41,577 bases of DNA from Desulfobacterales bacterium (GCA_024641825.1 JAHECI010000003.1:1-41577); one strand, 5' to 3'. Shown: positions 23,285 to 32,062, counted from the stretch's first letter. The notes: generated from the letters alone by a model not told the origin. Program-made: numbers and translations.

Positions 23285-23617
23285 ATGGACAAAAAAGATC
23301 TGAAAAAATTGCTTGCTTCTTTGGGCGTTGCCGGCTTGATCAGCATGGGCGGTATTACGCTTCCCGGAGCCCACGCGGGTAGCGGGTGAGGCGCCAAACC
23401 CAGTGCAGGTGGCACTGAAAAACAAGTCAAGCCTCCGGCCGGAAGTGGCTGAGGCGGTTCCAAAGGTGGCGCAGTTAGCGCTGAAGAGCAACAAAAGATG
23501 GAACAAATGAAGACCGAAGAGCAATCTGCAGAGGAAAAAGCCAAGAAGGCCGCAGAGGAAGAGGCAGAGAAGGTCAAGAAAAAAACCGGAAAAAGCGGCT
23601 GAAGTGGCAACAAATGA
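23285..23617 (+). CDS. Candidate selenocysteine-containing precursor peptide (110 codons; three in-frame UGA at 23387, 23450 and 23600)
   Basis: The single frame from ATG 23285 has no TAA or TAG before the terminal TGA at 23615-23617. The only three internal stops are TGA, in the contexts G-S-G-TGA-G, G-S-G-TGA-G and K-S-G-TGA-S. The N-terminus is signal/leader-like (MDKKDLKKLLASLGVAGLISMGGITLPGAHA). The gene lies directly upstream of a radical SAM/SPASM gene. Confidence 0.6.
23393..23417 (+). other. SECIS-like hairpin candidate downstream of UGA-1
   Basis: Either cagtg-caggtgg-cactg (23401-23417) or the alternative gcca-aa-cc-cagtgca-gg-tggc (23393-23413). A loop G/U lies ~16-22 nt after the UGA. 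This was folded by eye only. Confidence 0.35.
23467..23483 (+). other. SECIS-like hairpin candidate downstream of UGA-2
   Basis: (tg)gcgc-aguua-gcgc(tg); the loop G is ~24 nt after the UGA. Confidence 0.35.
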
Positions 23618-23737: not shown

Positions 23738-25321
23738 ATGTCCACGCATCGTTTCGAAACAGACTTTCGAAAGCGTTATCCAGTTTGTTTTGAACTCTTA
23801 CCGGATCTTGAAAAATATTTAGAAGGGGATGCGGCATTGTCCGAAGTTCTGGATCGGGATCCCGAAAGGTGCCGGCGTTATCCCTTTATCTTCGATCTGG
23901 CAAGAATCGAAGAATCAAGACATCGTCTCCTGAACTCTCCACCATCCCTGCCGAAAATGGTGACCCATCGCATGGTCAACCCGGCCCTTGAACTGCTGCC
24001 GGTGAGTTGGCAGCACCTGCCGGAATTGTTGTCCAATCCCGCCACAGTCCCGGAATCCGGCGACGGATATGTCCTCGTGTTGATTAGACCCGGAAAAAAG
24101 GGGGTCGAAGTTCGCAACGCCGAAGCCAGGGACCTTTTGGCGCTCAAGATTGTGGCTGAGGAGATCGACTCCCGAAAGGCCGCTTCCGAAGGCAATGTTA
24201 CGGTAGGGGCCATCGACAACGTTCTTTTTCGGGCTGAACAGCTCGGCCTGATCCTGACACCACCACCGGGCATCCGGCGTCCCCCAGAATTCCCGAAAGG
24301 TGAGATGGACGATCCTGTTTTTTTTTCGTCCTCGACCTTTACATTACAGTGGCACATTACCCAGACCTGCGACTTGGACTGCCGCCACTGTTACGATCGC
24401 AGCGATCGCGAAGCCATGACCCTCGAACAGGCACTGGGGGTGCTCGACGACCTTTATGATTTTTGCCGGGGATACCATGTGTTCGGTCAGGTATCCTTTT
24501 CCGGGGGTAATCCCATGCTTTACCCTCACTTTGATCGCTTATACAGCGAAGCGGTCGATCGGGGTTTTATGACGGCCGTTCTTGGTAATCCCATGCCCCG
24601 AAACCGTATCGAACGCATGCTTGCGGTACAAAAACCGGAGTTCTACCAGGTCAGCCTTGAGGGGCTGAAAGCGCATAACGATTTTATAAGAGGCCGCGGC
24701 CACTATGACCGGGTGCTGGATTTTTTAAAGCTATTGGGCGAGCTGGGAGTTTATCGGATGGTGATGCTCACCCTTACCCGGGACAACATGGACCAGGTCC
24801 TAAAGCTGGCGGATCGGCTCAAAGGTCTTACGGATTTGTTCACCTTCAACCGACTGGCGTCGGTGGGCCGGGGGGCTGAACTGTCGGCCGTACCTATTGA
24901 AAGGTTCCCCGATTTGTTAGCCCGGTATATGGATGCTGCTGAAACGAACCCCTGTATGGGATTTAAAGACAACTTGTTTAATCTCTTGCGGTGGCAGCGG
25001 GGGCTTCCCCTTGGCGGCGGCTGTGCAGGTCACGGCTGCGGGGCGGCCTTCAACTTCGTCGCCCTCCTGCCCGACGGCGAAGTACATGCATGCCGAAAAA
25101 TGCCCTCCCTGATCGGCAACATTTATCGGGAGCGCCTGAATGACATCTATCACGGAACCTCTGCCAGCCGCTACCGGGATGGATCGACGTCGTGCAGTGC
25201 CTGCCCTGTTCGTCCGGTTTGCGGGGGTTGTCCGGCGGTCAGTTATGGCTTTGGCCGCGATATCTTCAATGAGCTCGATCCCTATTGTTTCCGAAACCAA
25301 ACGGGAAACACATCCGCTTAA
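23738..25321 (+). CDS. Radical SAM/SPASM-domain peptide-modifying enzyme with a ~195-aa N-terminal extension
   Basis: The CxxxCxxC motif is CDLDCRHC (Cys211/215/218). The C-terminal auxiliary-cluster motifs are GGGCAGHGCGAAF...DGEVHAC and CSACPVRPVCGGC...DPYC. Confidence 0.9.
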   Translation: MSTHRFETDFRKRYPVCFELLPDLEKYLEGDAALSEVLDRDPERCRRYPFIFDLARIEESRHRLLNSPPSLPKMVTHRMVNPALELLPVSWQHLPELLSNPATVPESGDGYVLVLIRPGKKGVEVRNAEARDLLALKIVAEEIDSRKAASEGNVTVGAIDNVLFRAEQLGLILTPPPGIRRPPEFPKGEMDDPVFFSSSTFTLQWHITQTCDLDCRHCYDRSDREAMTLEQALGVLDDLYDFCRGYHVFGQVSFSGGNPMLYPHFDRLYSEAVDRGFMTAVLGNPMPRNRIERMLAVQKPEFYQVSLEGLKAHNDFIRGRGHYDRVLDFLKLLGELGVYRMVMLTLTRDNMDQVLKLADRLKGLTDLFTFNRLASVGRGAELSAVPIERFPDLLARYMDAAETNPCMGFKDNLFNLLRWQRGLPLGGGCAGHGCGAAFNFVALLPDGEVHACRKMPSLIGNIYRERLNDIYHGTSASRYRDGSTSCSACPVRPVCGGCPAVSYGFGRDIFNELDPYCFRNQTGNTSA

Positions 25322-30814: not shown

Positions 30815-30857
30815 GGGCAGGATGAAACGCAACATCCCCGCCTGGGCGGGGATGTTG
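30815..30857 (+). terminator. Very strong orphan intrinsic terminator (perfect 16-17-bp stem plus U-tract)
   Basis: aacgcaacatccccgcc-tg-ggcggggatgttgcgtt followed by attttct. There is no + strand CDS upstream. Confidence 0.6.
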
Positions 30858-31082
30858 CGTTATTTTCTAAATAGTTTCCATCCATAAATGGCCCTTTTTG
30901 CCCGGATCTGCGTTCTCCGCGGATTTCCGGCTGCGGCATACAGGAGTATGCCTCGCCGAAAACCCTTGTGCGGCCTTGATCCGAACAAAAATTGCTCATT
31001 TATGAATTGGAAACGCACGGTGCCTTTTTAAAATTGTGGATGGGCACTAAATAGTTTCCATTTAACAAGTGTGGATGGACAC
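30856..31082. repeat. Short dispersed direct repeats: ctaaatagtttccat x2 (30856-30870, 31047-31061) and tgtggatgg(g/a)cac x2 (31035-31047, 31070-31082)
   Basis: Read directly: 15/15 and 12/13 identities. Confidence 0.8.
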
Positions 31083-31099
31083 AAAATAGATATTGCTTT

Positions 31100-31795
31100 T
31101 TAATTTAAGATGTAGGTCCGGTAGTCGAGAAGCCGGAAGGAAAGGGCCAAAACACCCGCAATCACGGGATCGTCGTGAATAATGACGAGTTCTTTGCTTT
31201 TGTTCAGTTTTTCAAGGTTCGCAAAGGTCCACAACTCCGCGTAGGGAAGGTTGATGGCATTTTCCACGTGCTCTTTTTCGTATTTGTCGGCCGGCCGGAA
31301 ATCAACCAGGACCGGATTTCTTAGGGCCTTGACCTGATCAAATCCGATGCTCCATTCGGCAGGGTTGTTCTGGTTGGCGAACATGATGTTTTGAAGAAGT
31401 TTGGAATCGGTATCAATGGAGAAGAAAGCGTCCATCCAGCCTTTCGTCCCCACCCGCATCCAATGGACTTTAGTGTAGCCTTGGGTTACCGCCAACCTGG
31501 CGGCGTGATAGGATTTCCATCAATTATTGTCGGCGCAATAGAAGACGATGGGGGTGTCTTTGTCCTCGGGAAGGGCTTCGACGTCGAACTCGGCCTCGGC
31601 CAGATCGAAATCGGTCCGCTTGTGATCTTTTGGGACATCCATGGTGATGTGGGCGGATCCGGCGGCGCGTCTCATGCACCAGTCGGTCATGTGAGTGAAG
31701 GCGGCGATGAGCATGCCTCCCTCGGACTGGATTTTGAGAGCCTCCTGCGGAGAAACGACCGCCACACCTTCGAGTGTTTCTGGTGTCGAACTCAT
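31100..31795 (-). CDS. Tandem rhodanese-domain protein with an in-frame UGA (candidate Sec) in the first active-site loop
   Basis: ORFs 31520..31885 and 31100..31495 are in the same frame and are separated only by TGA (31522-31520): ...PIVFYCADNN-U-WKSYHAARLAVTQGYTKVHWMRVGTKGW... The rhodanese domain is only complete when the TGA is read through. The start is ATG 31795 with RBS aaaggag. A hairpin lies 19 nt after the UGA. Confidence 0.65.
31489..31503 (-). other. SECIS-like hairpin ccgcca-GGU-uggcgg downstream of the rhodanese UGA
   Basis: 6-bp GC-rich stem. The GGU apical loop lies 25-27 nt after the U of the UGA (minus strand). Confidence 0.45.
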
Positions 31796-32062
31796 GTTAT
31801 ACTCCTTTCTATGTGGTTTTATTTTGGTTGGACTACAACCGGTCCCAGAAACAAATACAAAAATTATGCCAACTTTATTAACCAATTGAAAAATAAGGAA
31901 AAACCGAGTTTAGCAACGATTTTACGGCTACCAAAAGTCCGATTCGAGATAGATTTATGTCCAATTTGGAGAGTCGGGGTTCCAAAATGGAGCTCGGGGA
32001 AGGGGGGGCAACCCTCGACGGACAATTGACAAACGGGAACGGATAGTTCTATTCTGGCCCCC

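What the first reader, a model, noticed from the sequence alone, without database searches (positions are those of the whole stretch)
31100..31795. Tandem rhodanese protein that is only intact if an active-site-loop UGA is read as selenocysteine (C-x4-U)
The two ORFs in the track (31520..31885 and 31100..31495) share a frame and are separated by a single TGA. The second 'start' is just an in-frame TTG. Read-through gives ...EDKDTPIVFYCADNN-U-WKSYHAARLAVTQGYTKVHWMRVGTKGW... This reconstitutes a complete rhodanese domain in which the UGA sits 5 residues after the canonical catalytic Cys position, inside a loop 2 residues longer than usual. A GC-rich hairpin with a GGU loop follows 19 nt downstream. 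The second rhodanese domain has lost its catalytic Cys (VIIHDDPV). Sec-containing rhodanese-related sulfurtransferases have been predicted in marine and deltaproteobacterial selenoproteomes (my recollection of published selenoproteome surveys). A Cys/Sec pair in one loop suggests selenenylsulfide or persulfide chemistry. The gene also provides independent evidence for Sec decoding that supports the peptide finding.
Basis: partly seen in the sequence, partly recalled or inferred. Interest (0 to 1): 0.7.

Follow-up and report, generated by a model that had tools for sequence, protein, structure and literature searches.

The report
Selenocysteine-containing tandem rhodanese gene (Cys-x4-Sec)
Two adjacent "genes" on the minus strand are really one 231-residue double-rhodanese protein whose internal UGA almost certainly encodes selenocysteine next to the catalytic cysteine; public records split this family in two, and I could not match it to any selenoprotein family in the catalogues I could read.

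Summary

- **Gene:** window 31795→31100 (minus strand) is one gene with a single in-frame TGA at 31520-31522. The TGA lies 5 residues after the canonical rhodanese Cys, in a loop 2 residues longer than usual.
- **Conservation of the TGA:** 75 of 76 homologous loci have TGA at this column and one has TGT (Cys). All named genomes are Desulfobacterota MAGs; the rest are metagenome contigs. None has TAA or TAG there, whereas the real terminal stop is TAA or TAG and never TGA.
- **Cys in distant relatives:** more distant relatives, with the motif Y-C-x4-C-W-K-S-Y, have Cys at both columns without exception.
- **SECIS-like hairpin:** a 7-bp hairpin with a GGN loop lies 22 nt after the UGA. It meets the published bacterial SECIS constraints, is paired in all 34 distinct sequences, shows two compensatory pair changes at synonymous sites, and is missing from the Cys form.
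- **Fold:** the Cys homologue models as two complete rhodanese domains (pLDDT 92.7). The second domain has Asp in place of Cys.
- **Independent Sec evidence:** the same window carries an SbtA/SbtM seleno-oxazole locus.
- **Relation to known families:** no curated selenoprotein model reaches its cutoff. The closest is the rhodanese domain of TsoB (U-x4-U). Two homologues are themselves U-x4-U.
- **Function:** a Cys/Sec redox pair acting in sulfane-sulfur chemistry is inferred, not shown.

The parts
31100..31795 (-). Complete selenoprotein CDS: 231 codons plus TAA, with codon 92 = UGA (Sec). The product is about 26 kDa, has no signal peptide, and starts MSSTPETLEGV.
   Evidence: The same start is used in orthologues.
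31863..31892 (-). Sigma-70-like promoter match: TTTTCA, 18-nt spacer, (TG)CATAAT. It lies upstream of the ATG and inside the spurious TTG-extended ORF.
   Evidence: consensus match only.
31802..31807 (-). Shine-Dalgarno sequence AAGGAG, 6 nt before the ATG at 31795.
   Evidence: Sequence.
31421..31762 (-). Rhodanese domain 1 (about residues 12-125). It carries the expanded active-site loop C87-A-D-N-N-U92-W-K-S and the family motifs THMTDW and HITMDVPKDHKR.
   Evidence: Pfam, PDB alignments, AF2 model of the Cys orthologue, alignment A2.
31535..31537 (-). TGC codon for Cys87, at the canonical rhodanese catalytic position. It is invariant in the family; two homologues have TGA here.
31520..31522 (-). 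In-frame UGA, predicted selenocysteine 92.
   Evidence: TGA in 75 of 76 loci and TGT in 1. Among distinct complete genes it is TGA in 52 of 52, while their terminal stops are TAA (42) or TAG (11).
31488..31504 (-). bSECIS-like hairpin GCCGCCA-GGU-UGGCGGU: 7 bp, 3-nt loop starting GG, loop 22 nt after the UGA, -10.6 kcal/mol.
   Evidence: The constraints it meets are quoted.
31103..31354 (-). Rhodanese domain 2 (about residues 148-231), catalytically inactive. D208 (codon 31172-31174) sits where the Cys would be.
   Evidence: Pfam, column count, AF2 model.

Best explanation
Window 31795→31100 (minus strand) is a single gene for a cytoplasmic two-domain rhodanese selenoprotein.

Decoding. SelB and Sec-tRNA(Sec) would decode the UGA at codon 92 as selenocysteine. 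They would be recruited by the in-frame hairpin whose GGU loop begins 22 nt downstream of the UGA.

Architecture. Domain 1 keeps the canonical catalytic Cys87. It holds Sec92 five residues later in an active-site loop that is two residues longer than in standard sulfurtransferases. Domain 2 is an inactive rhodanese module with Asp in place of Cys. This order (active N-terminal domain, inactive C-terminal domain) is the reverse of classical tandem rhodaneses.

Inferred mechanism, not shown. Cys87 and Sec92 form a redox pair. Cys87 takes up a sulfane sulfur, or a related chalcogen, as a persulfide. Sec92 then acts as a built-in resolving or attacking nucleophile, giving a Cys-S-Se-Sec selenenylsulfide. 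A thiol reductant such as thioredoxin reduces that bond again. The ancestral state is the C-x4-C-W dithiol of the wider family. Sec replaced the distal Cys in Desulfobacterota, and in two lineages the proximal Cys as well.

The confidence given (0.85) applies to the statement that this is one gene whose UGA encodes Sec. I put the specific chemistry at about 0.4-0.5.
For: Shown here:
1. Conserved TGA. 75 of 76 homologous loci have TGA at the column and 1 has TGT; protein identity to the window across these loci is 51-96%.
2. Stop-codon control. In 53 distinct complete genes the internal codon is TGA 52 times and TGT once. The true stop is TAA 42 times and TAG 11 times, never TGA. TGA is an ordinary stop in 7 of 27 other window genes, so this is not a recoded genetic code.
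3. Cys/Sec pair. P0001 has FCADIYCFKS. The wider C-x4-C-W family has Cys at both columns, 41 of 41 and 36 of 36.
4. SECIS hairpin. All cells are paired in 34 distinct sequences. Two pairs show double compensatory changes (C-G to U-A in 14 sequences and in 1 sequence). No shuffle out of 500 reached the observed covariation score, and the slid controls collapse.
5. Synonymous-site constraint. Codon A98 (GCT in 18 sequences, GCC in 34) shows the same 18/34 split as codon A102 (GCA in 18, GCG in 34), and one search shows these are the same 14 of 34 distinct hairpin sequences changing together. R100 is AGG in 52 of 52.
6. The hairpin meets all four bSECIS constraints quoted from PMC13188914. It is absent from the Cys form.
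7. The N-terminal ORF alone is an incomplete rhodanese domain. The Cys orthologue models as two full rhodanese domains, with pLDDT 92.7 and tandem rhodaneses as the top PDB matches.
8. The same window carries SbtM (TIGR04082, 647 bits) and an SbtA precursor (TIGR04081, 46-49 bits) with in-frame UGAs. This is independent evidence for Sec use in this genome.
9. Probing the NCBIfam TsoB model costs 5.3 bits for C87A and 5.3 bits for C92A. The known U-x4-U selenoprotein therefore most likely aligns with this C-x4-U.
Against: - No selA, selB, selC or selD gene and no tRNA-Sec is in the 41.6-kb window.
- Rfam has no match to the hairpin.
- The 3-nt loop is at the lower limit of the bSECIS model.
- There is no experimental evidence of any kind: no 75Se labelling and no peptide.
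- The chemistry is pure inference. I could not measure the Cys-Cys distance in the model.
- Gene neighbourhood is not conserved, so it gives no functional anchor.
Confidence: 0.85

Rival explanations
1. Two real, separate genes: a 91-aa N-terminal protein that ends at the TGA, followed by a 131-aa rhodanese protein that starts at the TTG. This is how public records annotate the locus.
For: Gene callers and GenBank/IMG split the locus this way in dozens of records: a 91-aa 'hypothetical protein' plus a 131-aa 'rhodanese-like domain-containing protein'.
Against: - The 91-aa product stops in the middle of the active-site loop and fails the Pfam threshold.
- The downstream 'start' varies among homologues (TTG, ATG or GTG at different codons) and has no SD sequence.
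- The 8 codons between the TGA and the TTG are nearly invariant in frame.
- The stop is never TAA or TAG in 52 distinct genes, although the true stop is always TAA or TAG.
- A Cys orthologue is continuous.
Confidence: 0.03
2. The UGA is read through, but with a standard amino acid (Trp, Cys or Gly, by near-cognate or reassigned decoding) and not with Sec.
For: Read-through without Sec would also keep the frame open. Cys fits the column chemically.
Against: - TGA terminates 7 of 27 other genes in the window, so there is no global reassignment.
- A conserved, covarying hairpin with a GG loop at bSECIS spacing is specific to Sec insertion, and it disappears in the TGT form.
- The lineages are Desulfobacterota, known heavy Sec users (PMC1976440).
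- An SbtA/SbtM seleno-oxazole locus lies in the same window.
Confidence: 0.05
3. A pseudogene, or a sequencing or assembly error that created a premature stop.
For: The records are MAG and metagenome assemblies, which can carry errors.
Against: The identical TGA appears in 75 independent loci from many samples and lineages. There are no other frame disruptions, and protein conservation is strong on both sides of the TGA.
Confidence: 0.01
4. The gene is a genuine selenoprotein, but the chemistry differs from sulfane-sulfur transfer. It could be an oxyanion reductase (arsenate, selenite or tellurite) in the manner of Cdc25/Acr2-type expanded loops. It could be a selenium carrier. It could be a dedicated thiol/selenol oxidoreductase for a partner, such as the corrinoid methyltransferase system found next to it in some genomes.
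For: - The loop is longer than the 6-residue sulfurtransferase loop. From established knowledge of rhodanese/Cdc25 loops, loop length tunes substrate.
- A subset of loci (L007, L017, L020, L027, L059) has URO-D, B12-binding and DctP genes adjacent.
- Rhodanese can carry selenium in vitro (Ogasawara 2001, cited in PMC5877670).
Against: - There is no Arg at the end of the loop as in CX5R phosphatases and arsenate reductases; the sequence is C-A-D-N-N-U-W-K-S.
- The neighbourhood association covers only a minority of loci and is absent from the window.
Confidence: 0.3

Closest known systems
TsoB, rhodanese/DsbD fusion-like selenoprotein (NCBIfam NF045694; 'rhodanese form 5', motif UxxxxU; Haft & Tolstoy 2025 as listed in PMC13188914)
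   Same: It is the best NCBIfam match over the loop region (50 bits; residues 73-142 match model positions 102-171). The model penalises C87A and C92A equally, by 5.3 bits each, so its two chalcogen columns have the same x4 spacing and position. Two homologues of the window gene (L017, L076) are themselves U-x4-U.
   Different: - The score is far below the cutoff (50 against 805).
- There is no DsbD-like membrane part. The window protein is 231 aa, against a 572-position model.
- The window protein has a second, inactive rhodanese domain.
- The window gene has Cys, not Sec, at the first column.
- W93 is not favoured by the TsoB model.
- No Tso operon neighbours are present.
- I could not obtain the TsoB sequence itself.
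Rhodanese-related (seleno)protein, LYCAU type (NF041203; 'form 3', CxU, with a UxU variant in Olavius symbionts, PMC1976440)
   Same: It is a rhodanese domain that retains the canonical Cys and has a second chalcogen (Sec) inside the active-site loop. It occurs in Deltaproteobacteria, and a variant with the Cys also replaced by Sec exists.
   Different: - Sec is at +2, not +5. The model loses score for C87A and gains 1.2 bits for C92A.
- The score is 28.5 against a cutoff of 115.
- It is a single domain.
PQQ-dependent catabolism-associated CXXCW motif protein (TIGR03865), and the unnamed periplasmic Y-C-x4-C-W-K-S-Y-K rhodaneses, including ~305-aa tandem forms in Campylobacterota (P0095, P0186)
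   Same: They share the clade-specific loop with two invariant Cys followed by W-K-S-Y. The Campylobacterota proteins also share the architecture of an active domain followed by an inactive domain.
   Different: - They are Cys-only and carry signal peptides.
- The window protein scores 50.6 against a cutoff of 128 on TIGR03865.
- There is no PQQ dehydrogenase context in the window.
- Their function is also unknown.
Classical tandem rhodaneses (bovine TST, SseA/3-MST, COG2897) and the Sec forms in which U replaces the catalytic Cys (UxxG, 'forms 2 and 4')
   Same: They have two rhodanese domains, one active and one inactive, and give Foldseek hits at E 1e-6 to 1e-10.
   Different: - The domain order is reversed; here the N-terminal domain is the active one.
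- The inter-domain geometry differs (TM about 0.37).
- Here Sec is an additional residue and does not replace the catalytic Cys.

Membership tests
Bacterial selenoprotein gene (generic criteria) | In-frame UGA conserved at the same column in orthologues. | tested here: met
   75 of 76 loci have TGA. It is never TAA or TAG, while terminal stops are TAA or TAG only.
Bacterial selenoprotein gene (generic criteria) | Cys-containing homologues align Cys with the UGA (Cys/Sec pair). | tested here: met
   P0001 has TGT at the column. In the wider family, 36 of 36 sequences have Cys.
Bacterial selenoprotein gene (generic criteria) | bSECIS stem-loop: 3-9 nt loop, 4-16 bp stem, G in the first two loop positions, 16-37 nt from the UGA, energy at or below -7.5 kcal/mol (PMC13188914). 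| tested here: met
   3-nt GGU loop, 7 bp, 22 nt spacing, -10.6 kcal/mol. Covariation. bSECISearch itself was not available.
Bacterial selenoprotein gene (generic criteria) | Sec machinery (selA, selB, selC, selD) in the same genome. | not testable with these tools
   None is in the window. Indirect support comes from an SbtA/SbtM seleno-oxazole locus with in-frame UGAs in the window.
Bacterial selenoprotein gene (generic criteria) | Selenium demonstrated in the protein (75Se labelling or mass spectrometry). | not testable with these tools
   This needs an experiment.
Rhodanese homology domain (PF00581) | Profile score above the gathering threshold. | tested here: met
   63.9 bits against 22.2, with two stretches.
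Rhodanese homology domain (PF00581) | Catalytic Cys at the start of a 6-residue active-site loop (sulfurtransferase type). | tested here: not met
   The Cys is present at the canonical position, but the loop is 2 residues longer; the alignment to YOR285W puts the extra residues at U-W.
NF041203 rhodanese_LYCAU (seleno)protein | Score at or above the curated cutoff, with Sec at +2 (CxU). | tested here: not met
   28.5 against 115. C92A does not lower the score.
NF045694 TsoB | Score at or above the curated cutoff, with a rhodanese plus DsbD-like fusion. | tested here: not met
   50 against 805, matching only model positions 102-171 of 572.
NF045694 TsoB | Two chalcogen residues spaced x4 in the rhodanese loop. 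| tested here: met
   There are equal 5.3-bit losses for C87A and for C92A. The window gene has C-x4-U, and L017 and L076 have U-x4-U. The alignment was inferred by probing, not seen directly.
TIGR03865 PQQ_CXXCW | Score at or above the curated cutoff, with a PQQ-dehydrogenase neighbourhood. | tested here: not met
   50.6 against 128. The neighbours are an alpha/beta hydrolase, SUI1 and CspA-like genes.
Classical tandem rhodanese (TST/MST, COG2897) | Inactive N-terminal domain plus an active C-terminal domain with Cys. | tested here: not met
   The order is reversed: C87/U92 lie in domain 1, and D208 is at the Cys column of domain 2.
[quoted passage not shown] | Sequence homology and the same Sec column. 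| not tested
   The motif UxxS is compatible with U-W-K-S, but the sequence could not be retrieved. No Geobacter protein appeared in either word-indexed protein search.

The most novel reading that the evidence does not exclude
This would be a selenoprotein family missing from the published catalogues. It would be a sixth form of Sec-rhodanese, in which Sec does not replace the catalytic Cys. Instead Sec occupies a second, clade-specific position of an enlarged active-site loop (C-x4-U-W-K-S). The family has cytoplasmic and secreted versions and shows independent transitions to a Sec-Sec pair (U-x4-U). On this reading the C-x4-C-W rhodanese clade, including TsoB and the PQQ-associated proteins, is a dithiol/selenol redox-enzyme family and not a set of simple sulfurtransferases.
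Probability: 0.55. Interest if true: 0.5.

Novelty: new variant of a known kind. Interest (0 to 1): 0.45.

Why it matters
1. Annotation. In the roughly 30 public gene calls I inspected (GenBank, IMG, ENA), each is a 91-aa 'hypothetical' N-terminal piece or a ~131-aa 'rhodanese-like' C-terminal piece. In the loci where both calls were visible they are adjacent, and none spans the TGA. A dedicated model would repair these records.

2. Biochemistry. The family gives a natural series: C-x4-C, C-x4-U and U-x4-U in one loop of one fold. That makes it a clean system for asking what Sec contributes to persulfide and selenenylsulfide chemistry.

3. Function of a wider clade. It links TsoB and the PQQ-associated 'CXXCW' proteins to a wider rhodanese clade with two conserved chalcogens. 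The function of that clade is unknown.

4. This genome. Together with the SbtA/SbtM locus, it shows that the window's organism decodes UGA as Sec.

Tried and rejected
- **Rfam.** The gathering-threshold scan of the whole window found nothing. The permissive scan of the hairpin region gave no SECIS family match, only a chance hit at E 9.8.
- **tRNA scan.** No tRNA-Sec is in the window.
- **Single-sequence AF2.** The model of P0001 was useless (pLDDT 35). It was redone with an alignment.
- **Exact look-ups with 'U'.** Sequences containing U are not accepted.
- **Conserved gene neighbourhood.** None exists across the family. Only close relatives share the alpha/beta hydrolase, and a subset shares URO-D, B12-binding and DctP genes.
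- **A second small stem that includes the UGA (UGAUGG/CUAUCA).** It is broken in L017, L057 and L076 and its sequence is constrained by the coding sequence, so I judged it coincidental.
- **ExtH of Geobacter.** The paper I read describes ExtH only as a rhodanese-like protein and assigns the cluster's Sec residue to ExtKL, so I did not pursue ExtH as a candidate known relative.
- **The TTG at 31885 as start, which would give a lipoprotein-like extension.** I rejected it for four reasons. Orthologues start at the ATG. The SD sequence precedes the ATG. The promoter-like site lies inside the extension. The lipobox is poor.
- **Literature.** The TsoB paper (Haft & Tolstoy 2025) and Kryukov & Gladyshev 2004 are not held. 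No paper in the library mentions a CxxxxU motif.

Full report
**1. The observation**

On the minus strand, the ORFs 31520..31885 and 31100..31495 share a frame. They are separated by one TGA (31520-31522) and eight sense codons. The credible start is the ATG at 31795. AAGGAG lies 6 nt upstream of it, and a sigma-70-like match lies at 31892-31863. Orthologues start at the same place.

Read-through gives a 231-residue protein:
- MSSTPETLEGV...PIVFYC(87)ADNN-U(92)-WKSYHAARLAV...VIIHD(208)DPV...YILN.

Pfam finds two rhodanese stretches in the read-through protein (63.9 bits). The 91-aa N-terminal ORF alone is sub-threshold at 16.7 bits against 22.2. It stops in the middle of the active-site loop.

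Alignments to solved rhodaneses (YOR285W, PspE) put C87 on the catalytic Cys.

**2. Is the UGA a stop?**

A protein search returned one full-length homologue and seven C-terminal halves. The full-length one, P0001, is 51% identical and has Cys at the UGA column (FCADIYCFKS).

The DNA shows why only halves were returned. Fetching it showed that each split homologue has an in-frame TGA at the same column. Scans of one genome per species and of JGI metagenomes brought the total to 76 loci. Every locus with an organism name is a Desulfobacterota MAG: Desulfobacterales, Desulfobacteraceae, Syntrophobacteraceae or Desulfobaccales.

Codon counts:
- The column is TGA in 75 loci and TGT in 1.
- Among 53 distinct complete genes, the internal codon is TGA 52 times and TGT once.
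- The true terminal stop in those genes is TAA 42 times and TAG 11 times, never TGA.

A genuine stop would drift among the three stop codons over 57-96% protein identity. This one does not.

TGA ends 7 of 27 other genes in the window, so the genetic code is standard. The eight codons after the UGA (WKSYHAAR) are nearly invariant in frame; the only change is H97 to Q in two sequences.

**3. SECIS**

Starting 15 nt after the UGA lies the hairpin GCCGCCA-GGU-UGGCGGU (31488-31504, minus strand). It has 7 bp, its loop begins 22 nt after the UGA, and its energy is -10.6 kcal/mol.

The bSECIS model quoted in PMC13188914 has four constraints:
- a loop of 3-9 nt;
- a stem of 4-16 bp;
- a G in the first two loop positions;
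- 16-37 nt of spacing from the UGA and an energy at or below -7.5 kcal/mol.

All are met.

Across 34 distinct Sec-type sequences, every cell of the 7 pairs is a standard pair. Two pairs show double compensatory changes, C-G to U-A in 14 sequences and in 1 sequence. No shuffle out of 500 reached the observed covariation score, and sliding the partners destroys pairing.

The covarying bases are third codon positions:
- A98 is GCT in 18 sequences and GCC in 34; A102 is GCA in 18 and GCG in 34.
- The loop-forming Arg codon is AGG in 52 of 52 sequences, although AGG is only 15% of Arg codons in the window.

The Cys orthologue has no hairpin at these columns, at -3.3 kcal/mol with a different fold. 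Rfam has no model that matches.

**4. Wider family**

A full HMMER search of 1.8 billion representatives found the true family only as fragments, such as P0014, a 91-aa piece ending ...FYCADNK. The more distant relatives are mostly secreted single-domain rhodaneses with the loop Y-C-N-G-x-x-C-W-K-S-Y-K. Campylobacterota also have ~305-aa tandem forms with the same architecture of an active domain followed by an inactive one.

In the alignment used for modelling, both Cys columns are invariant (41 of 41 and 36 of 36). The catalytic-equivalent column of domain 2 is never Cys.

A sister group with a signal peptide is also a TGA form with the same hairpin (L079: TYCASSN-U-WKSYHAARLAV).

Two independent homologues have TGA at both columns:
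- L017: Y-U-A-D-D-G-U-W.
- L076: F-U-A-D-D-K-U-W.

In these, the first UGA lies 37 nt from the loop, just inside the model's limit.

**5. Structure**

AF2 on the Cys orthologue with a 48-sequence alignment gives pLDDT 92.7 and two alpha/beta rhodanese domains. Foldseek's best PDB matches are tandem rhodaneses: 6mxv, 1yt8, SseA, 3-MST and TST. The global TM score is only about 0.37, which indicates a different domain arrangement. Single-domain rhodaneses (YgaP, GlpE) match one domain at TM about 0.74. I could not access coordinates to measure the Cys-Cys distance.

**6. Comparison with known Sec-rhodaneses**

A 2026 review lists five Sec-rhodanese forms (PMC13188914):

| Form | Motif | Note |
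|---|---|---|
| 1 | UxxS | |
| 2 | UxxG | |
| 3 | CxU | NF041203 |
| 4 | UxxG | |
| 5 | UxxxxU | TsoB, NF045694 |

The Olavius study added a UxU variant of form 3 (PMC1976440).

The window protein reaches no curated cutoff:

| Model | Score (bits) | Cutoff (bits) |
|---|---|---|
| TsoB (NF045694) | 50 | 805 |
| TIGR03865 'CXXCW' | 50.6 | 128 |
| LYCAU (NF041203) | 28.5 | 115 |

I probed the models with point variants of the loop:
- TsoB loses 5.3 bits for C87A and 5.3 bits for C92A. Its U-x4-U therefore most likely sits on these two columns.
- TIGR03865 loses about 5.4 bits for each Cys and 7.4 bits for W93A.
- LYCAU loses score only for C87A. Its Sec is at a different position.

I could not retrieve the form 1 sequence (WP_010941598.1). 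Its motif UxxS is compatible with U-W-K-S, so prior cataloguing cannot be excluded. I estimate about a 25% chance that form 1 is this family.

Public records call the pieces 'hypothetical protein', 'rhodanese-related sulfurtransferase' or 'rhodanese-like domain-containing protein'. No held paper mentions a CxxxxU motif.

**7. Context and Sec competence**

The neighbours in the window are an alpha/beta hydrolase (divergent orientation), SUI1 and a CspA-like gene. There is no Sec machinery and no tRNA-Sec.

Neighbourhood is not conserved across the family. A subset of loci has URO-D, corrinoid-binding and DctP genes adjacent.

The window does contain SbtM (TIGR04082, 647 bits, at 23738-25321). 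Just upstream is an SbtA-family precursor (TIGR04081, 46-49 bits, at 23285-23617) with three in-frame UGAs, each after S-G. A GGG-loop hairpin lies 22 nt after the last UGA. This is independent evidence that the organism decodes UGA as Sec.

**8. Mechanism**

Shown:
- one gene;
- a conserved Sec codon with a SECIS-like element;
- a Cys/Sec pair of columns in an enlarged rhodanese loop;
- an inactive second domain.

Inferred:
- Cys87 and Sec92 act as a redox pair.
- Cys87 forms a persulfide.
- Sec92 attacks it, giving a selenenylsulfide.
- An external thiol system reduces that bond again.

Alternatives such as oxyanion reduction, selenium carriage or a dedicated partner reductase cannot be excluded.

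**9. Verdict**

The gene is a Sec-containing rhodanese of a type closest to TsoB's rhodanese domain, but with a different architecture, and public gene calls split it in two. This is a sound but moderate novelty. It is a new variant within a known kind (Sec-rhodaneses), not a new principle.

Noticed in passing
window 23285-23617 (+) and 23738-25321 (+): This is an SbtA/SbtM thio(seleno)oxazole RiPP locus. The maturase matches TIGR04082 at 647 bits. The precursor leader matches TIGR04081 at 46-49 bits. The precursor reads MDKKDL...AHAGSG-U-GAKPS...PPAGSG-U-GGSKG...KTGKSG-U-SGNK*, with three in-frame TGAs (23387-89, 23450-52, 23600-02), each after S-G. A TCATGCA-GGG-TGCATGA hairpin has its loop 22 nt after the last UGA. 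I do not know whether three Sec codons in one SbtA precursor is usual.
   Followed up: partly
L017 2823-2840 (CAZRES010000088.1) and L076 3243-3260 (Ga0123353_10015426): Two homologues from different subclades have TGA at both the canonical Cys column and the Sec column (U-x4-U). The genes are otherwise intact. The single hairpin would lie 37 nt from the first UGA. P0198, a close relative of L076, has Cys at the first column, so these look like independent Cys-to-Sec changes.
   Followed up: partly
L079 5001-5774 (Ga0187366_1058709); also the fragments P0038, P0191, P0193, P0196: A sister family has an N-terminal signal peptide, the same TGA column (TYCASSN-U-WKSYHAARLAV), the same hairpin sequence and the same inactive second domain. 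It is a secreted version of the selenoprotein.
   Followed up: partly
L007 811-2694; L017 3365-6890; also L020, L027, L059: In a subset of loci the gene sits next to a URO-D-family (MtaA-like) methyltransferase, a corrinoid B12-binding protein and a TRAP DctP solute-binding protein. This hints at a link to corrinoid-dependent methyl transfer. The association is absent from the window.
   Followed up: partly
public records of the family (e.g. MBW2226254.1, MBW1748190.1, MDX2497200.1, HOV87648.1): Every public gene call I saw for the family is only a piece of it: a 91-aa 'hypothetical protein' or 'rhodanese-related sulfurtransferase' for the N-terminal part, or a ~131-aa 'rhodanese-like domain-containing protein' for the C-terminal part. 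One 90%-identity cluster of the N-terminal fragment alone has 71 member sequences.
   Followed up: yes
window 30826-30861: A strong 16-bp GC-rich inverted repeat (AACGCAACATCCCCGCC TGGG CGGGGATGTTGCGTT) lies about 240 nt downstream of the gene's stop. It is terminator-like on the + strand. Whether it ends the rhodanese transcript is unknown.
   Followed up: no
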